Shown one piece after another: positions 1 through 64,000 of a stretch of 64,000 nucleotides of DNA. The position numbers and the translations under genes are program-made. The stretch's first letter is position 1. Every line of letters begins with the position of its first letter. The notes under the pieces were generated by a model. That model did no database searches. It was not told the DNA's origin and saw only the letters and a list, made by a program, of their open reading frames with translations. The stretch spans positions 118,668,001-118,732,000 of the forward strand of contig OX597818.1 of NCBI GenBank assembly GCA_951406725.2, given 5' to 3'. This stretch comes from Octopus vulgaris. Taxonomy: Eukaryota.

Positions 1-1285
1 TATATATATATATCGTGGTATGTGATACATATTCCTTGATACATACATTTACGTCATGATATTAATTAAAATATAGAATATTTTACATGCCGTTATATTA
101 TATTACTGAAAGTAAACTGTAATCAAATGACTTTGACTTGCGTAACTCTATTCCGATCTTTTGACCCGGTTATCACTATTCACATAAATGTTCAAAGATT
201 GAGTCCGTAGTGCATACGTTTTCAATGATTGCCCATGTGAGATGTTGTTTACTTACATATCGATCCCTTGTTTTGTGATGTTAGATATGCATAAGGGATT
301 CGCTGTATAGATTTCCGGACTAGGTTGTTCGTATTTCGTATAATGGTACACATAGATACATATTATTATAAAAGTAAATACCTATAAACATACATCCATA
401 TACAATATAATTTATGTATATTTATATGTGTGTGCCTGTGTTGGTGTGCTTACTTACGAACAAGTTTATTTGATTTTGTGTGGATTTTTGTTTGAATATG
501 TATATTTAACTCTTTATGAAAGACTGCAAAATTCTGTATTTTAACTTTTGTTAAGCAGACTAACAGAAAATTGTAATGCTGTCAAAATAACCGTAGCAGT
601 TCTGAAACAGATCAATAGGTTTTAAAGAAGCAAAGTATCTGTTCCATAGAGAGACGTAATCTGAATGTAAATATTGCTATAATGGTATAGGAATGAAGCC
701 TGTTGAAGATACTGCAACAATAGTTGTGACTCTGGCCAAATATCATGGATTCTAAATGCATTCATTGTTTGTTTCGGAGTGATTGAAAGGCATTTTGCAG
801 CTTTTTTGTTCTTTAAAAAAAAAAGTAAAACGATTAAAGTGGATTCTGCAAGCAACAAACTCAGGAAATAAACCACTGAACTGAAAAGTATGGCCTAAAA
901 CATCTTGAAAGCTATTCCATAGACATGTTACGTGGGTGCTCATTGTTCGTGTTTTATTTTAATGGAAATGACGCCTCGCATATATCGAGTGCCAATTCAT
1001 ATTCAGCTGTTATAAAAATGGTTATTCTTAAACCGAGAACAAATCACATTTACTTACAAATGGTAATGTATTTTGTTTTGCTTTTGTTTATGTACCGTTT
1101 TAGCCATATATAAACATTCTGAGAGTAGAAATAAGATCATTGCGTTTCTAACCGTGACCCTCTGGTCTTTTAAAGAATAATGAATCCTCACAGTCTATTG
1201 TATTAATCCATGGTATTAATTCGTTTTTCTACTACAATAGACTTTCCTTTGATTATGACTTGTTTATCATAATTAACCTCTGCAG

Positions 1286-1541
1286 GTTTCCTGGTTTCCT
1301 GGTTTCCTGGTATCTGAGTTAGGTAGCAATCAGCCCCTTTTGCTATCATTCCCAGGGCACCCATGACAACTGGTATTGCTTTAGTCTTCAGGTCCCACAT
1401 TTTGCTGATTTCTATTTCCAGATCTTTATATTTGCTCAGTTTCATGTAGGTCTTGACAGATACGTTTATATCGATTGGGACAGTCATATCAATGAGGAGG
1501 CATGTTATTTGTCTGAAGTCTTTTACTATGATGTGTGGCCT
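1286..1541 (-). mobile_element. R4/Dong-clade non-LTR retrotransposon fragment (restriction-like endonuclease domain)
   Basis: Translation NRPHIIVKDFRQITCLLIDMTVPIDINVSVKTYMKLSKYKDLEIEISKMWDLKTKAIPVVMGALG matches the RPD..D/E..P..K..KY..L..PVV.GALG RLE motif; the 5' end abuts a (TAA)n array. Confidence 0.85.
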
Positions 1542-1575
1542 ATTATTATTATTATTAATATTATTATTATTATTA

Positions 1576-1635
<60 letters not shown>
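1541..1635. repeat. (TTA/TAA)n microsatellite
   Basis: Direct reading; source of the poly-N and poly-L ORFs. Confidence 0.98.
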
Positions 1636-1636
<1 letters not shown>

Positions 1637-1959
1637 GGCAAATTTGCAAAATCTTCACCCGAACCGGTCAAAGGCTTAGTGGTTTTTACCTTTTGCATTC
1701 AATTTCCTCAAAAATAGTCACTGTGATCGAAAGACTCTTCTAGCCTCCTTCCTCACTCATAAATTCCGGCATTGTGCTTGTAGTAGACTGCATTATTATA
1801 ACTTATCTTATAATTACTTGCTATTGTGGCTTTGTTGCTATATTTTCAATTCTAGATAATCACTATTTTCGAAGTCCTCTGCATGTGACCCTCTTTAAAA
1901 GCAATTCTCTTATTGTCATTTCTTATTAAGACAAAAGAAACACAGTTTTGTGCTATTAT

Positions 1960-2350: not shown

Positions 2351-3284
2351 GATCTCAATTTTCAAAATTTAGCGCCCTACTTCTACGTTTTCCGTGTATC
2401 TTTTATATGATCATTACAACATTAACTGGTACATAGAACTAAAGATTTGCCTATGAACCTTACACAATACGAATGCATGAAACCCACGGTATCCTTCAAT
2501 AAAAAAAAAACAGAGACAAAAATATATCTTTAGCACAACTTTTCTAGTCAGAGAACAACACCACTTATAATGTACGTGAAGCCTCATATTTTGCTGATAA
2601 GGAAGCTTAAAGGCAACCGCTTAAATTCTACCAGTCTAGCATTGGCTGCCAATAGTGTCTGTATATCTTTCGTCAAGACAAAAACTAAATATACTTTTAG
2701 GGCAGTGCCCTATTAGACCAGGGCCTGACCGCTGATACCATTAGAGTCTACTATTTATAGATAATCAAATGCCAATATTTCAGTACTCTTTAATACAGAT
2801 TACAAATCTCACGGGACTAAAATTATTTTAGTTCCGATAATTTCGAAAAGGTACGAAATACTTAATGCATTTTGTTAAACAAGTTAATCACTCCAGATGT
2901 ATAGTCCTTGTCATTTTTAAAGAGGATAAGAATGTTAGTTTGAAGATTTGTGAAATCAACCATAATTAGTTTGTATGTTAATGTTAATAATAGAAAAAAT
3001 TGATATAAAATATATTGGAAAATGGACTTCCGACGTATAAAGTCAAAAGATATAACTCTTGGCATCAGAGCTTTGCTTCCTTTTGACTGATTTACGATTG
3101 TTATTCCCAAATGCCACTAACAAAGCCGAATTCCCTAATGATGCTTTCATAAACTTACAAAATAGTTCCAGACAATTCTTAGTATCCACAGCTCTGATAA
3201 GTTACATAATAATACATGAATTCAACGAACATTAAATAAGCATATTTTCGAATGGTCTTATATCATATGTGAATTAAATATCAT

Positions 3285-3285
3285 A

Positions 3286-3340
<55 letters not shown>

Positions 3341-3489
3341 ATGTGTGTGTATGTGTGTGTATGTGTGTGTGTATGTATAGATGTACGTATATATACATAT
3401 ATATATATATATCTTCATATACATATATGTGTATATATATATGTATATTATATAGATACATGCATATATATAGATATATATATAGACGA

Positions 3490-3524
<35 letters not shown>

Positions 3525-3624
3525 TGTATATACATACATATATATATATATACACATATATATATATAGATAGATAGATATAGATATATATATATATATA
3601 GACATAGATATATATGCCCACGCA

Positions 3625-3676
<52 letters not shown>

Positions 3677-3679
3677 CGT

Positions 3680-3735
<56 letters not shown>

Positions 3736-3775
3736 GCTATATGCATATATGTGAGCGAGTATGTGAGTATACATA
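3285..3775. repeat. compound (TA)n/(TG)n/(TAGA)n microsatellite
   Basis: Direct reading. Confidence 0.97.
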
Positions 3776-4011
3776 TAAAATTTCTATGGATGTATAAACT
3801 GATGAATTCTGCGTATGATTGCACATTGCTGTGTATTTAATTAAAATAATACAATGGATTGAAACTGGTGCGATTAAGCAAAAAAAAACATTCCACTCTA
3901 TATGATTTATGTACACAGACGGGAAATATATGTGTGTGTCTTTGTGTGTGTTAGCGTGTGTGTATGAATATGATTATATGAGTGGGTCTGTGTGTAGATA
4001 GGTGATATGTA

Positions 4012-4235
4012 TTACTCTTTACTCTTTTACTTGTTTCAGTCGTTTGACTGCGGCCATGCTGGAGCACCGCCTTTAATCGAGCAACTCGACCCCGGGGCTT
4101 ATTCATTGTAAGCCCAGTACTTATTCTATCGGTCTCTTTTGCCGAACCGCTAAGTGAAGGGGACGTAAACACACCAGCATCGGTTGTCAAGCAATGCTAG
4201 GGGAACAAACACAGATACACAAACACACACACACA

Positions 4236-27730: not shown

Positions 27731-27765
27731 TAGGTGCAGGAGTGGCTGTGTGGTAAGTAGCTTGC
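27731..27765 (+). mobile_element. SINE family A head (5' piece of the copy split by the 2.25-kb insertion)
   Basis: TAGGTGCAGGAGTGGCTGTGTGGTAAGTAGCTTGC; the SINE continues at 30011. Confidence 0.93.
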
Positions 27766-27806
27766 GCAGTTAGTCGGTTGCTTCTGGTTGAGCTAGAGTG
27801 GACGTG
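27766..27806 (+). promoter_or_regulatory. putative internal Pol II promoter (Inr-like CAGTT/TTAGTC plus DPE-like GGACGTG)
   Basis: Inr-like motifs at 27766-27775; GGACG at 27800-27804, about +29 from the A at 27772 (one base off the canonical +28). Confidence 0.4.
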
Positions 27807-28471
27807 AGTAACAAGCTCTGTCCAACTAAAGAAAAAAGACCAAAAACGGAAAGTTGTCGAGGTAAGTGATTTTGTTTATTGTGAGTTGGGCATAATTTAT
27901 TGCGTGCCAATTATTATTTCAGTAGGTTGTGTCCAACTCTGAGACAATTTCGCCTGCGCTAGGCGGCTGCCGTTTTTGTGTTCATTGAAAAAAAAAAAAA
28001 AAAAAAAAACAGTGGAGAGGCGTATACTCAGAATTCAATACAGTTACTGTTAAAATTACCGTTGGCAGTAGCCAGTACTGTGTTTGAGTTTGCTGAATTT
28101 ATTCCCTTGTCAGAGTACTTCGCAAGAAAAGTATAAAAATAGGCCACTATTGGATTACCTTTCGGACCCATTTTCGTGGAGGTTGTGTTGCAGTTGCGGC
28201 GTTCCAGGTTCAACCCAGGCCGGGAGTACCGCAAGGCCAGAATATTTTTGCTGTGTTTTTTCTGTTTATTAACTTTCTTTTGAACTTCATTTAACCACCC
28301 CCCCCTTTTGTTTTTTTCTTTATTGCGACTTTCCGTTAATTTCTTCCCTTCTGTTGTGCTTTCTCCTTTTTGTTTTTTCAAAAATCTATCAAATTTTATT
28401 TAGACTTTTGAACTTTTTCTTCCTGCTTTTGAGTTTAATTTGAATATATTTAAAAAAAAAAAAAAAAAAAA

Positions 28472-29738
28472 ATGGCAATGAAAAATAACAAAATTTTGGA
28501 GTGGGAAATCATACCACCCAAAAAGTGGTTAAAAGACCGTGAAGATAGGACGGTGGTGTTGAGAACCTACTCCAAGGCACTTGACACCATCGCCCTATTC
28601 GAAAAGACGGCAATTGAGGAGGAGTTGGAAGAGTATTTGCCAACAATTAAATTCATTTCCAGGGGTGTCAAATATGCAACGGTGTGGTTGCTATTTGACA
28701 CCCCTGAAGAGGCTTGCAAATTTGCTAGCAAACCCTTGGAGGGTAAGGAAATCTTATTCCTGCCCACGTACAAAAAAAAGAAATTGATGAAAGCTTGGAT
28801 CTGCGGACTGCCACCCGACATAGAACCCGAGTGGATAGAGGAGACTATCCGCCGGGGTCTGGGTGACAGCGAAACTAAGCTCCTCAATGTAAAAGTTCTT
28901 CCTGCGGCTGCTTGGGTTGGGTCGAAATCAATTTTGACCCTGTGGCCCCAATCAGCCAATCTGGTTCTTCCAGATTTTTTGAAAATGGCCGGGTGCAGGT
29001 ACCCGGTGATGCTTGAGGGTCGCCCCCCTAAGTGTCATCGGTGCTTGGAGTCCGGCCACATAAAGAAGAACTGTCCTCGGGAACAAAATAGGATCCCGGA
29101 ACAGTTAAGTAAAACCCCCTCTAGAAGAGGGAACGATAACGGCCGAGAAAGCAGAGGACGCCTCAAACAGAGGCCGAAAGAGGAAGGTGAGCAACAATGG
29201 TGGCTCAACAAAGGATAATAGGGATGAGGAGAGGAAGGCGAATCTTCCAGCCACGGAGGAGACGCACCCTCCTCAGTTGAACAGGGAAAAAAAGAAAAAG
29301 AGGAAGAAAAACGGGACATTACCGGCTGTCAGTGTAGCACCGGAATGTCGCGGAACTACGTCGGTTGGGGTTGTGCCACCGACAAGAGAAGGAATACCGT
29401 TGGCGGAAACTGTGCTGCCAACGAAAGAACTGAATGTATTGGTCCTCTTCTATAGAGGAGGAGAAATTGAAAAAGTGATGGAAGAGCACTACAAGGGAGC
29501 ACCTTTAGCCTTCACACAGGACCCCGAATGGCCTCCGCAGGTAGCTGTGGAGGCCGTGGCGTTCGACGTGACGCTAGGGCTAAAGGAGCTCAATGAAGAT
29601 TATAACTTGGTCCCGGGCGACGCGAACTCGGAACTTGACTACGTTCTGAGGGAGGCGTGGTTGATGGTGGAGGGCGCGGGCACAATCTATTTCGCGGACG
29701 ATATGTTTATTAGTAATGGACTTAAGTCCAAAAATTGA
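28472..29738 (+). CDS. L1/Tx1-type ORF1 protein (RRM-like region, CX2CX4HX4C zinc knuckle, basic linker, uncharacterised C-terminal domain); one +1 frameshift between 29109 and 29218
   Basis: ORF 28472-29218 contains GRPPKCHRCLESGHIKKNCP; the overlapping frame is open 29109-29738; the joined product would be about 421 aa. Confidence 0.8.
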
Positions 29739-29836
29739 AAAATTGTAAGAGGATTAATACCTCGTTTTGTATTAATAATGGACTGCTAAGCCCAAAAATT
29801 GGAAAAATTGTAAGAGGTTTTATACCTCGTTTTGTG
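29714..29836 (+). repeat. about 62-bp tandem duplication spanning the ORF1 stop codon and 3' UTR
   Basis: TAATGGACT..AAAAATTG.AAAATTGTAAGAGG.T..ATACCTCGTTTTGT occurs twice. Confidence 0.9.
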
Positions 29837-30010
29837 TTTATCTTTTTAAAAAGAACAATGTTTTAGAGAAGCAAAAGTCGGCGGGCGCTTTCTGTCTTCT
29901 CCCATCCTTATCATCTTTCTTTCATTATCATTCACCTCATTAATGTCCTCGTCCAGCACGCAAAGCTAACTTAATCTGTGTACTGCCTTTATGGCAAATG
30001 TTTTGAAATA

Positions 30011-30153
30011 AAGTAGCTTGCTAACCAACCACATGGTTCCGGATTCAGTTCCACTGCGTGGCATCTTGGGCAAGTGTCTTCTACTATAGCCTCGGGCCGA
30101 CTAGAGCCTTGTGAGTGGATTTGGTAGACGGAAACTGAAAGAAGACTGTCGTA

Positions 30154-30203
<50 letters not shown>

Positions 30204-30428
30204 TGTGTGTGTATATGTTTGTGAGTCTGTGTTTGTCCCCCTAGCATTGCTTGACAACCGATGCTGGTGTGTTTACGTCCCCGTCACCTAGCGGTTCGGC
30301 AAAAGAGACTGATAGAATAAGTACTGGGCTTACAAAGAATAAGTTCCGGTGTCGATTTGCTCGACTAAAGGCGGTGCTCCAGCATGACCGCAGTCAAATG
30401 ACTGAAACAAGTAAAAGAGTAAAGAGTA
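30011..30428 (+). mobile_element. SINE family A, remainder of the split copy
   Basis: Resumes AAGTAGCTTGCTAACCAACCACATGGTTCC and ends GTAAAAGAGTAAAGAGT. Confidence 0.95.
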
Positions 30429-60117: not shown

Positions 60118-60318
60118 TTATTAACTTTTTAGGCTGACATCTTAGTTACGATTGTTTGTTTATTAATTTTTTAGGCTGACATCTTAGCTACGCTTGTTTG
60201 TTTATTAATTTTTTAGGCTGACATCTTAGTTACGATTGTTTGTTTATTAATTTTTTAAGCTAACATCTCAGTTACGATTGTTTGTTTATTAAGTTTTTAA
60301 GCTTACATCTCAGTTACA
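60118..60318 (+). repeat. about 41-bp tandem repeat, about 5 units, at the LINE 5' end
   Basis: TTATTAATTTTTTAGGCTGACATCTTAGTTACGATTGTTTGT repeated. Confidence 0.93.
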
Positions 60319-60844
60319 TATCTTACTCTTTTTCTCATCTCCTTTCCTCCCATTCATATCATCCTCTTCTCTCATCTCTCTTTCCTTTCCATCTTACATC
60401 TACCTCTCCTCTCGTCACCTCACCCTCTCTCTCATATACTTCTCATCCGCCCATTCTTCTCTCCCTCTCTCTCACATCCTTCATCCTGTCTCTCCTTCAC
60501 TCTGTCTCTCTTTCTCTTGCTATCCTCTCCACATCTCTGTTTCTCTTTCTCTTCCCTCCTCTCCTTCACTCTGCCTCTCTTTCTCTTCCCCCTTCTCCTT
60601 CACTCTGTCTCTCCTTCTATTCCCTTCCTCTCCACCTCCCCTACCTTCCTCTATCCTTTTAACACACCACACCCACTTGCTTTCCTCCTATCACCCCCTC
60701 GATTTATTTCATAGCACCTCTCTCTTTCCTTCCTATCTCCCTCTCTCTTTCCCTATTTTCCCCTCTGTGTTTCTCCGTCTCTACCTCTCTCTATCCCTCA
60801 TTACCTCTCTAGCCTCTACACCCCCTCTGGAATTCAAAACGAAG

Positions 60845-61790
60845 ATGGCACCAAAGTGGGAAAAGAAAGAGTTAAATCTTCTGCTGAGAGCATGGACGAT
60901 TGCTAGTGGCGATCCGCCGAACAACATCATCACTGCCGCGCTAAAAAACAATGGTTTTCATAGAACCATTGACCAGATAGAGCAGAGGAAAAATGAGTTT
61001 ATCCGGTCTTACATGCTTATAAGACCACACATCAAAACACTGGACAACATAATTGAAAATTATTGTAGCAAAGCTGATGAGTATGAAGAGGACAAAAAAG
61101 AGAAGGAAGCCGGAAGTCTCTGTGATCGGGGGTTCCTCAGGAAAATGGATCACCTACCCCGGTGAACGACCAAGTAGTGAAGGATAGGGGAGCCAAGGGA
61201 GCAGAAACCGGAAGCTCCCCTGTACCAGTAGTCCTACGAAAAAATGAAAAATTAGAAAAAATTAGAAAAACAGAAGAAAAAAGGAAGGACCGAAAACAAA
61301 AATAAGGAGAGAAAAGGAGGAAAAGGCAAAACAACCAAAGCTGAAACCCCAACCCACCACACAAACAGCAGAGAACCCCATGGAGGATCCAATGCCACCC
61401 AGTACACTTCAGGAAAGAAGAAATCTGGAAGGCACCGAAGAACCTGTAAGTTCTGCGGAACAAATGTTGGCATGGTGAGGACAGCAAAAACTGCCGGTTC
61501 GCCCACCCTACACCCCGAAAAAAATTTAAGGGGGCTCAAAGAGAAAAACTTTACCGAGAGAACACAAGAAATCTCTCCCAGGGAAACTTTCAAAAACGAA
61601 TTGCGCTCCTCAGATGTTCTGCGCAACGCAGCAGCTGAGCAAGAGTCTTTTTTTATGCATGGCGGAAAGAATTGTCCAGCAGCTAACCAGGCTACACCAA
61701 GCACACAGAAGGAACCCTGCCCACCACTATGCAAGACCACCACAGTCAACAGACACGGGATGGCCTCCCCTAATGCCTGCAGAGCCGTCA
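60845..61790 (+). pseudogene. LINE ORF1 remnant: Myb/SANT-like (trihelix) N-terminal domain plus CCCH-type finger
   Basis: MAPKWEKKELNLLLRAW..IITAALKNNGFHRTIDQIEQRK; later TCKF/NKCWHGEDSKNCRFAHP at about 61442-61509; multiple frameshifts and stops. Confidence 0.65.
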
Positions 61791-64000
61791 CCCCAATACT
61801 TTTACTAAATATTGGGGGCCTGTTGTATCAAAATAGAAACAAAATTTCTTTCCTAAGAGATCTTACTGCATGCAATCAAGCCTAATGCATAGCACTTGTG
61901 GAAACTCACCTCAACCCTGATATAGAGGACGCAGAAGTACACATACCAAACTATGAACAGACAGAAGGGAAAGGAGCCATGGTGGAGTTGCTGTATACAT
62001 CCGAGATGGCCTCACACCACAGGTCTTGATGACATACTCAAAAACGGTATGTGACACCTTAATTGTATACATAAGACAACATAATATAGTCATATGCAAT
62101 ACATATTGCCCACCGGATGCCCCAAATCACATAGGCAAGTTTGAATATTGCCTCACAAGAATTAAAGAAATCCTCATGAATCTGGAACACCACGTGACCG
62201 TATTTCTTATGAGTGATTTCAATTTCCCCAACGTTAAATGGCCCGAAGGTCACATACTCTCAGGAATGAATCATTGCAAGCAAGTACAGGTGGAGTCCCT
62301 GCTCAACCTCACCAATGCCTTATTCATGGAGCAAGTTGTACTCAAGCCAACTAGGGCGAATAACATTCTGGATCTCTGCTTCACGAACAATATGGACATC
62401 ATTCATGATGTGAAAGTGACACCGACATCAGTTTCGGATCACAACATAATAGAGCTGTCTATGTTTGGGCCGAAAGTAACCAGAGACATACAGCCTAAAG
62501 GAAGCACCTGAAATCTCTCCAATCTGAACTTCCACAAAGCAGATAGGAAATCGATCCAAAAAGAGATCCTCAGAGAGGACTGGCCGGATTGTCTCTCCAC
62601 AGCAGACATTGACATGAAACTAGAATGTTTCATGTCTTCTGTGCAAGCCGTATGCCAGAAATATGTCCCAGAGCGCAAGGCCAAAACAAATAGGAGCAAG
62701 ATTCCAAGAGACAGGAAGATCCTCATAGGACGACGGACGAAGGTTGCAAATCGTCTCAACCAACATCCCAAAAGTAGCGAAACGTCCCGCCTAAAAACAA
62801 CACTGATGCAGATCGAAAAAATTCTGCAACAATCCTATGTGAAGGAGAAAGCAGACAAAGAAGCCTGGGTTATAAAAAAACATTAAATCAAACCCAAAGG
62901 CCTTCTTTCATTACGCGAAAGAAACAGTCTCAGTGCACTACAAGATAGGACCCCTCCTTCAAAAGGATGGCTCCCTCACAGACAGTCCAACTATGATCAG
63001 TGAGATGCTGAATGACCAGTTCAAAAGTGTCTTTACCACCCCGTTGGAACACAGACAAGTGAACGAACCAGTGGACTTCTTTGCCGCCTCACCTATAACC
63101 AGCGAGGCGGTTGCAATAGAATGTATTGACATTAGCGAAAAAGATGTCCTACTAGCCATAGATGAAGTGGACACAAACTCAGCTGCTGGTCCAGACGGGT
63201 TCCCAGCCATCCTTCTCAAAGCGTGTAAGCATGCCCTGGCAAAACCCCTCAAGTTTCTCTTCCAGAGCATTCTTGCGAATAGCAAACTGCCAAGCAAGCT
63301 GAAGGAGGGAATAATATGCCCAATACATAAAGGGAGAAGTAGAGCAGATGCCAAAAACTATAGGCCTATCTCTCTGACTTCACACATCAGCAAAGTCATG
63401 GAACGGATAGTCAGAAAGAAACTAATCGCATTCCTTGAGGAAAATAACTTGCTGAGTAATACCCAGCATTGTTTTCGACCAGGTTGGAGCTGCCTGACCC
63501 AGCTCTTACAGCATTATGACTGGGTGTTACTCAACAAATCAAATGTGGACGTAATCTACCTTGATTTTGCAAAAGTTTTTGACAAGGTGGATCATGATAT
63601 GATATGCCACAAACTACGTGACCTCGGCATAGCTGGAAAACTTGGAGTGTGGTTGCATGACTTCCTGAAAGATAGGAGTCAGGCAGTAGTGGTTAATGGA
63701 GCCACCTGTGTGAACACACAAATAGTGAGCGTTGTTCCACTGGGCACTGTCTTGGGACAACTGCTTTTTATAGTGGCCCTCTCAGATATGCCCTCAAATG
63801 CCCGGATAGTCACTCTGGCCAGCTATGCAGACGATACGAAAGTCTCGCAGAAAATACAGAACCCCAGCGATGTTGCACACCTGCAGCAGGAGTTGGACTC
63901 AATCTACAGATGGGCTGAGGATAATAATATGCAGTTTAATGCTGAAAATTTCCAGGCCCTGCGCTACCAGCATCCAAAACTGAATATTAAACTTACAGGA
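61780..64000 (+). pseudogene. LINE ORF2 (APE endonuclease + reverse transcriptase), disrupted; frame from 62879 appears open to the window end
   Basis: Stops at about 61883 and 62509; frameshifts near 61955 and at the A-run 62874-62880; RT motifs are partly degenerate (VVPLGTVLGQLLF in place of GVPQGTVLGPLLF). Confidence 0.92.

What the first reader, a model, noticed from the sequence alone, without database searches (positions are those of the whole stretch)
27755..30021. Complete ORF1-only 'half-LINE' retroelement inserted into a SINE with an 11-bp TSD
Seen: a family A SINE head stops at 27765 and resumes at 30011, with AAGTAGCTTGC duplicated on both sides, so the 2245-bp insert arrived as one unit. 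It has a 700-bp leader, a single coding unit with an L1/Tx1-type ORF1 signature (GRPPKCHRCLESGHIKKNC), a short 3' UTR ending in a TGCC-TTTAT-GGCA hairpin and AATAAA at the junction, and no endonuclease or RT. Known: variable-length TSDs and an AATAAA end typify L1/Tx1 target-primed reverse transcription, and ORF1-only non-autonomous HAL1 elements exist in mammals and some other eukaryotes. Inference: this is a cephalopod HAL1-like family that makes its own RNA-packaging protein and borrows ORF2p in trans. Alternatively it is a retrocopy of a domesticated ORF1-derived gene (analogous to L1TD1 or ZCCHC3). I do not know of such a family being described in octopus.
Basis: partly seen in the sequence, partly recalled or inferred. 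Interest (0 to 1): 0.85.

Follow-up and report, generated by a model that had tools for sequence, protein, structure and literature searches.

The report
SINE-targeting half-LINE family in octopus
This is one copy of an octopus jumping-gene family that encodes only a predicted RNA-packaging protein, lands at one fixed spot inside another, far commoner jumping gene, and likely borrows its copying enzyme from a full-length element that lands at the same spot: a parasite of a parasite, living inside a third.

Summary
It is one of at least 213 copies of a young 2.25-kb ORF1-only retroelement. It is site-specific: 30 of 30 copies picked by their own 3' end sit at one position (GGT^AAGTAG) in the tRNA-like head of a SINE with more than 27,000 exact empty sites. 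Hosts differ four times more than inserts and the distances are uncorrelated, so insertions are independent. A 5.4-5.7-kb autonomous element (ORF1, APE-RT-zf ORF2, open in many copies) uses the same site (30 of 30) and shares a 3' hairpin with compensatory changes; it is the likely helper. The ORF1-only elements form their own lineage: several families, 28% identical to the helper's ORF1, dN/dS about 0.1-0.25, no ORF2 behind any copy examined, head-to-tail arrays. The protein is predicted to be two RRMs plus a CCHC knuckle (Tx1-type ORF1). Corrections: the window copy is frameshifted and 5'-clipped, the 11-bp duplication is partly microhomology, and AATAAA is completed by target bases. It works like HAL1 and HeT-A but belongs to neither. 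No description found in ten literature searches; Repbase and Dfam were not available.

The parts
27733..27754 (+). 5' part of the host SINE head (tRNA-like, A-box-like TGGCTGTGTGG), left of the insertion point
   Evidence: uninterrupted SINE heads align end to end with this genome's tRNA-Lys(TTT), score 55 against a shuffled maximum of 49, modest support
27755..27765 (+). left copy of the target duplication; last 3 nt (TGC) shared with the element's 5' sequence
27766..28471 (+). 5' leader, type A of at least three interchangeable leaders; about 13 nt shorter than in most full-length copies
27862..27922 (+). intron-like 61-nt segment (GTAAGT...TTTCAG) near the 5' end; splicing not shown
   Evidence: similar donor and acceptor in the other leader types; no spliced genomic copy, 0 matches
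28472..29713 (+). ORF1 gene (414 aa in open copies): two predicted RRM-like domains, one CCHC knuckle, a basic linker and a C-terminal block; frameshifted in this copy
29708..29841 (+). imperfect tandem duplication of about 62-70 nt at the start of the 3' UTR
   Evidence: 87.5% identical
29975..30010 (+). 3' terminal motif shared with the autonomous partner: 4-bp stem with 5-6 nt loop (29984-29996), then AAAT-N-GAAATA
30011..30021 (+). right copy of the target duplication (host SINE resumes)
30022..30428 (+). rest of the host SINE: B-box-like GGTTCAGTCC, body, internal (TA)n, tail ending in GTAAAAGA repeats
   Evidence: (7 other window copies match the first part, 7 the second)

Best explanation
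It is one copy of a multi-copy, ORF1-only retroelement family that inserts at one fixed site in the head of an abundant octopus SINE and is likely copied there by the endonuclease and reverse transcriptase of an autonomous Tx1/L1-type element that uses the same site. Shown: copy number, fixed site, independent insertions, no ORF2, shared 3' hairpin, purifying selection on ORF1, and a partner with open ORF2. Inferred steps: (1) the element is transcribed from its leader, or from just upstream in the SINE, since its 5' end carries target-like bases; (2) its own ORF1p (two RRMs and a CCHC knuckle, predicted) coats its RNA in cis, which would explain the selection on it; (3) the partner's ORF2p recognises the 3' stem-loop and GAAAUA end; (4) the APE domain nicks the bottom strand at about 5'-CTACTT/ACC-3' and the freed 3' end primes reverse transcription; (5) the 5' junction closes by annealing of the target-like 5' end, giving apparent duplications of 4-18 bp and re-creating a target, so that further elements stack head to tail.
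For: Copies: 25 near-full-length matches at 94-100% among 40 scored of 3212 candidates; 213 exact copies of the last 31 nt. Site: the first 30 of those 213 are all followed by the target; 50 of 50 loci have the target at both ends, 45 behind a SINE head and 5 behind another element's 3' end. Independence: in 44 loci the host SINEs differ by 8.4% and the inserts by 2.0%, Mantel r 0.015, p 0.41; identical inserts sit in hosts up to 8.6% apart; 5'-truncated copies lie at the same site. Partner: APE, RT and zf-RVT over the Pfam cut-offs; both junctions at the target in 20 of 20 copies, 3' junction in 30 of 30 picked by their 3' end out of 108; ORF2 frame of 1140-1150 codons open in 11 of 20, both ORFs in 3 of 20; copies as young as the ORF1-only ones (median 1.4% apart). 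3' stem: 98.9% of cells paired, 8 cells with changes on both sides, 0 of 500 shuffles as high, in 22 ends. First 30 of 209 filled junctions: 11 partner-type ends, 19 ORF1-only-type ends, nothing else. Selection: dN/dS 0.095-0.25 between the three deep families at dS 1.0-2.2; pN/pS 0.21 among 16 open young copies. Lineage: ORF1-only and ORF2-linked ORF1s split 100/100.
Against: No mobilisation, cleavage or binding was tested. The similarity to the partner in DNA is only the last 36 nt (78%, E 0.076 alone), and the hairpin has 4 pairs and no unusual folding energy (z 0.58); the 22 ends were picked by a pattern that assumed their layout and are related, so the shuffle figure overstates support. 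34 of 50 copies lack an open ORF. The 16 open copies were chosen for being open and their pairs are not independent. Only best-scoring candidates were scored, so older copies off target or a rare autonomous element with this ORF1 type could be missed; among 38 divergent loci 6 had no 3' target junction and 3 no 5' one. The tree groups were first assigned by which query matched, so their split is partly by construction. Tx1 versus another L1-group clade was not tested with reference RTs.
Confidence: 0.85

Rival explanations
1. SINE and insert move together as one composite element, so the shared site reflects a single old insertion.
For: Every copy has the same flanks, and the left junction often carries element-specific target-like bases.
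Against: Hosts are four times more diverse than inserts with no correlation. Host variants are duplicated on both sides in L012 and L038. Unrelated families and 5'-truncated copies use the same site. Older families sit in another SINE variant.
Confidence: 0.03
2. These are recurrent internal deletions or early-polyadenylated products of an autonomous element that carries the same ORF1.
For: The 3' motif and target are shared with autonomous elements. Two of 38 divergent loci hold ORF2 pieces nearby (L223, L238). Searches score only the best 150 candidates.
Against: The partner's ORF1 is only 28% identical over 196 aa. None of 50 close copies has room for an ORF2 between ORF1 and the 3' junction, and none of 38 divergent ones has ORF2 directly after this ORF1 type: in L238 the piece lies 2 kb beyond the 3' end, in L223 it follows a partner-type ORF1 fragment. 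19 of 20 divergent partner-type ORF1s do have ORF2 pieces. Synonymous sites are near saturation between ORF1-only families.
Confidence: 0.05
3. Retrocopies of a domesticated host gene like L1TD1 or ZCCHC3.
For: Atlas features include a ZCCHC3-like cluster at 0.91, and the leader has an intron-like segment.
Against: Hundreds of copies in several families, each under purifying selection between families, with swapped leaders and chimeras. The intron-like segment is kept in all copies, the opposite of a processed retrocopy. No single parent locus stood out.
Confidence: 0.02
4. The ORF1-only protein is a working partner of the autonomous element, as HeT-A Gag is for TART, for example guiding the complex to SINE chromatin, and not only a selfish packaging protein.
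For: Long purifying selection, mixed head-to-tail arrays with the partner, and the HeT-A precedent cited in PMC5786205.
Against: The partner keeps its own ORF1 under similar selection (dN/dS mostly 0.06-0.24 in deep pairs), and cis packaging alone explains selection on a passenger's ORF1.
Confidence: 0.12

Closest known systems
HAL1 (half-L1) of mammals
   Same: Non-autonomous, encodes only ORF1p (PMC5753468, passage seen).
   Different: HAL1 derives from the L1 clade (PMC5786205). This protein has no Transposase_22 match and is of the RRM+CCHC type. It has a fixed target site and no poly(A) tail.
HeT-A of Drosophila (with TART/TAHRE), and Ag-Sponge of Anopheles
   Same: ORF1-only elements listed with HAL1 in PMC5786205. 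HeT-A is targeted and forms head-to-tail arrays with its helper (recalled).
   Different: HeT-A is Jockey-derived and Ag-Sponge CR1-derived. HeT-A adds to chromosome ends (recalled); this element enters an internal sequence in a dispersed SINE.
Target-specific Tx1 elements: Tx1L into Tx1D, Keno into U2, Kibi/Koshi into microsatellites, crocodilian Tx1-Mar with SINEU
   Same: APE-type elements with target preference, some into other transposons, with a non-autonomous passenger that shares the target and stacks in tandem (PMC4494074, passages).
   Different: The targets in those passages are DNA transposons, LTR elements, snRNA or 5S genes, satellites and microsatellites, not a SINE head. The known passenger (SINEU) is non-coding; here it is a protein-coding lineage. 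Site fidelity here is 30 of 30, against 13-90% for SINEU families.
Octopus L1-Tx1 repeats in genome annotations
   Same: L1-Tx1 is reported as an expanded and partly recent class in octopus (PMC13282606 Table 1 and supplement: 80 families; PMC8967140).
   Different: Neither text, as searched by term, mentions target specificity, nesting or ORF1-only families. The consensus libraries themselves were not seen.

Membership tests
HAL1 | encodes ORF1p only, no ORF2 | tested here: met
HAL1 | dispersed multi-copy family with TPRT marks (duplications, 5' truncation) | tested here: met
HAL1 | ORF1 of mammalian L1 type (Transposase_22) | tested here: not met
   Pfam gives only a weak zf-CCHC (E 0.008, under the cut-off); fold matches are tandem-RRM proteins
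HAL1 | poly(A) tail and dispersed T-rich targets (recalled feature) | tested here: not met
   no tail, one fixed site
Tx1 clade (autonomous partner) | ORF2 with APE endonuclease, RT and C-terminal zinc finger | tested here: met
   best solved relative is human L1 ORF2p, E 1e-66
Tx1 clade (autonomous partner) | Type I ORF1 (RRM + zf-CCHC), stated to fit the Tx1 clade in PMC5203782 | tested here: met
   RRMs are from a model of the ORF1-only protein (pLDDT 74) with low TM-scores
Tx1 clade (autonomous partner) | target sequence preference | tested here: met
Tx1 clade (autonomous partner) | RT groups with named Tx1 references in a tree | not testable with these tools
   no named Tx1 sequence among 27 homologues
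HeT-A | ORF1-only with head-to-tail arrays beside its helper | tested here: met
HeT-A | Jockey-clade origin and telomeric position | tested here: not met
   partner is closest to L1 ORF2p; copies lie inside dispersed SINEs along the contigs
Domesticated ORF1 gene (L1TD1, ZCCHC3) | single-copy host locus as parent | tested here: not met
   150 scored matches each, of about 12,000 candidates; all loci fetched are element copies
tRNA-derived SINE (host) | tRNA-related head | tested here: inconclusive
   ARAGORN and Rfam find no tRNA; alignment to 30 genomic tRNAs of 8 types beats shuffles in 2 of 3 heads, narrowly
CORE-SINE (octopus OR1) | about 60-bp CORE domain | not tested
   OR1 is named as a CORE-SINE in PMC4824008; no reference sequence was at hand; a CORE-like CCTTGGGCAAG motif is recalled only

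The most novel reading that the evidence does not exclude
An uncatalogued system in which a LINE has made a SINE's Pol III promoter its fixed target, follows whichever SINE subfamily is spreading, and keeps an ORF1-only companion lineage whose protein is a working partner in the manner of HeT-A: three tiers of mobile elements evolving together, with each insertion splitting the SINE's A box from its B box.
Probability: 0.15. Interest if true: 0.88.

Novelty: new variant of a known kind. Interest (0 to 1): 0.7.

Why it matters
ORF1-only LINE derivatives were listed from the L1, Jockey and CR1 clades, and target-specific Tx1 elements from several other targets. This joins the two: a likely Tx1-type, sequence-specific, ORF1-only lineage, with a SINE head as target. 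It gives a natural test of an open question, why a passenger keeps its own ORF1 when the helper has one: helper and passenger proteins are only 28% alike, both exist as open young copies, and the 3' signal is about 36 nt. A site-specific APE retrotransposon with a short trans-acting 3' signal is also of interest for targeted insertion. In octopus genomes it explains a class of nested repeats, arrays of up to about 20 kb inside one SINE, that automatic libraries would split or merge. It fills under 1% of exact sites (209 against 27,671), so it is unlikely to control the SINE.

Tried and rejected
Spliced genomic copies of the 5' intron-like segment: 0 matches; one leader type and one acceptor only. 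RNA: no RNA holder listed on record; four runs laid as contigs gave no splice joint among the rows shown, which were crowded by empty-SINE joints; no evidence either way. A frameshifted subfamily that spread without its knuckle: rejected, the C6-to-C5 change is scattered over the tree (9 changes against 9.5 shuffled, 10 of 69 rows), which fits homopolymer error or slippage. Homologue search with the ORF1 alignment among longer proteins: none. Rfam and ARAGORN on the SINE: nothing. Folding energy of the 3' end: ordinary. The blastn screen returned nothing for many loci that one search then resolved by pattern; I used. Earlier scan findings: nothing in three look-ups. Bao and Jurka 2010 (PMC2923044) was not held. 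No complex prediction was run.

Full report
Observation. Three details differ. The coding region of this copy is split into 254-aa and 209-aa frames, with indels against copy L002 at 29115, 29270 and 29286. The copy lacks about 13 nt of the usual 5' end and joins through a shared TGC. AATAAA at 30007-30012 takes its last two bases from the target, and there is no poly(A) tail.

A family, not a single event. A DNA search of the own genome scored 40 of 3212 candidates and gave 25 near-full-length copies at 94-100%, plus a group that joins at position 351 with another leader. The last 31 nt occur exactly 213 times. Of 50 copies examined (30, 14, 6; chosen by score, the window copy included), 16 have one open frame of 412-414 aa, and 29 of 50 frameshifting indels lie in homopolymer runs. 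One recurrent frameshift is scattered over the tree, so some breaks may be assembly error. In the four sequencing runs laid, the extra base at 29115 is absent from most of the depth.

The SINE is the fixed target. All 50 copies begin and end at the same position, GGT^AAGTAG, 45 behind a SINE head and 5 behind the 3' end of another element. To avoid selection by flank I took the first 30 of the 213 exact 3' ends in genome order: 30 of 30 are followed by the target. Exact empty sites number 27,671 and exact filled junctions 209. Among 38 divergent relatives, 35 have the 5' junction and 32 the 3' junction at the site, 29 both. The site lies just after the A-box-like motif, in what aligns with the D-loop of a tRNA; the tRNA origin of the head has only modest support here.

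Insertions are independent. In 44 loci the host SINE parts differ by 8.4% on average and the inserts by 2.0%, without correlation (Mantel r 0.015, p 0.41); identical inserts lie in hosts up to 8.6% apart. Host variants are duplicated on both sides in L012 and L038, while in other copies the left side keeps element-borne target-like bases that differ from the host. Apparent duplications run from 4 to 18 bp. 5'-truncated copies of 96 to 1209 bp lie at the same site, and truncated partner copies have duplications of only about 1-6 bp. So part of the long duplication of full-length copies likely comes from the RNA's own 5' end.

The likely helper. Directly upstream of one relative lay an RT gene ending in the same kind of hairpin and the same junction. 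It belongs to a 5.4-5.7-kb family with a 466-aa ORF1 and a 1133-aa ORF2 carrying APE, RT and zf-RVT; the best solved relative is human L1 ORF2p. All 20 copies fetched have both ends at the target, 11 have an open ORF2 frame and 3 both frames. 30 of 30 picked by their 3' end, out of 108, are followed by the target; their median distance is 1.4%. Of the first 30 of 209 filled junctions, 11 end in partner sequence and 19 in ORF1-only sequence. Across 22 distinct ends the 4-bp stem is paired in 98.9% of cells with changes on both sides in two pairs, while the loop varies. The ends were picked by pattern and are related, and the DNA likeness between passenger and partner is only the last 36 nt.

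The protein and its lineage. An AlphaFold model of residues 1-207 (pLDDT 74) shows two alpha-beta domains and matches tandem-RRM proteins such as hnRNP A1 at E 4e-4, with low TM-scores of about 0.3. Atlas neighbours are CCHC, RRM and ZCCHC3-like clusters. RRM plus CCHC is the Type I ORF1 that PMC5203782 links to the Tx1 clade (passages). The protein is 28% identical to the partner's ORF1 over 196 aa. ORF1-only and ORF2-linked ORF1s fall on two sides of a long branch, 100/100, also with 17 outside homologues added; the O. sinensis protein falls among the ORF1-only rows, though its context was not seen. Between the three deep ORF1-only families dN/dS is 0.095-0.25 at dS 1.0-2.2; closer pairs give 0.17-0.63; 16 open young copies give pN/pS 0.21. 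None of 38 divergent loci has ORF2 directly behind this ORF1 type; two hold ORF2 pieces that belong to other insertions. By contrast 19 of 20 divergent partner-type ORF1s have ORF2 pieces nearby.

Dynamics. At least three leaders are swapped onto the same ORF, and chimeras between families occur. Each insertion re-creates a target, and arrays form: four mixed units or more on C4, at least six on C5, and on C1 six counted units after one SINE head with a further unit and a partner copy beyond. Whether arrays grow by serial insertion, read-through or unequal exchange is open. Older families sit in an AAGAAGCTTGCTTCC variant of the SINE and mimic it at their 5' ends; younger ones use AAGTAGCTTGCTAAC.

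Mechanism. Shown: family, site, independence, lack of ORF2, shared 3' motif, selection, a young partner with open frames. Inferred from established TPRT biology: partner ORF2p binds the 3' stem-loop, nicks the bottom strand at the site and copies the RNA; the element's own ORF1p packages it in cis; the target-like 5' end closes the junction. I put this at 0.85.

Relation to known systems. It works like HAL1, HeT-A and Ag-Sponge, the ORF1-only LINE derivatives named in PMC5786205 (passage) and PMC5753468 (passages), but fails their clade-specific features. Its targeting resembles Tx1L, Keno and crocodilian Tx1-Mar with SINEU (PMC4494074, passages), whose listed targets do not include a SINE and whose passenger is non-coding. 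For octopus I read the first third of PMC13282606, searched its text and its one supplement by term, and searched PMC8967140, PMC4824008 and PMC8869645 by term; none describes this. Ten library searches listed no paper whose title or abstract start describes a SINE-targeting Tx1 or an ORF1-only Tx1 derivative; other listed papers were seen as listings only. Subscription papers, Repbase Reports, Dfam and the consensus libraries were out of reach, and a Repbase entry is quite possible.

Verdict. A real, well-supported new variant of known kinds: a sequence-specific ORF1-only retroelement lineage with its likely autonomous helper, nesting in a SINE head. Interest 0.7.

Noticed in passing
window 27862-27922; L027, L038, L072, L075 leaders: All ORF1-only leader types carry a GTAAG or GTAGG donor about 90-135 nt from the 5' end and a pyrimidine-rich AG about 60 nt later, although their sequences differ; many partner leaders have a donor-like motif at 45-75 nt. 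No spliced genomic copy was found.
   Followed up: partly
G000 C1:223.689-223.709 Mb (L097, L248, L249); C5:78.745-78.758 Mb (L063, L077); C4:151.498-151.510 Mb (L072, L078): Head-to-tail arrays of 2-kb ORF1-only units, some with a partner copy, inside a single SINE.
   Followed up: partly
L117, L124, L165, L168, L169, L175: Chimeric copies: 5' part from another ORF1-only family, 3' part from the window's family; four of them switch at the same position (insert 1633).
   Followed up: no
L232-L241, L064-L068, L137, L149: Older families of both kinds sit in, and mimic, an AAGAAGCTTGCTTCC variant of the SINE, which suggests tracking of SINE subfamilies over time.
   Followed up: partly
L134: A partner-type ORF1 at the target site with no ORF2 piece in the 7.4 kb fetched: a broken copy or a second, independent ORF1-only derivative.
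   Followed up: no
window 60293-63357 (+): Another LINE remnant; the frame 61957-62511 matches Exo_endo_phos_2 (E 8e-12).
   Followed up: partly
window 1203-1667 (-): A frame that looks like the C-terminal end of another LINE protein, broken by an (AAT)n run; no Pfam match.
   Followed up: no
L079, about 2754-4019 on the reverse strand: A 415-aa helicase-like frame of Helitron/PIF1 appearance (recalled likeness) begins right after a SINE head broken at nearly the same position.
   Followed up: no
P0003 (Octopus sinensis): A gene model that fuses about 45 aa of this ORF1's N-terminus to an integrase domain, probably a mis-joined annotation over nested repeats.
   Followed up: no
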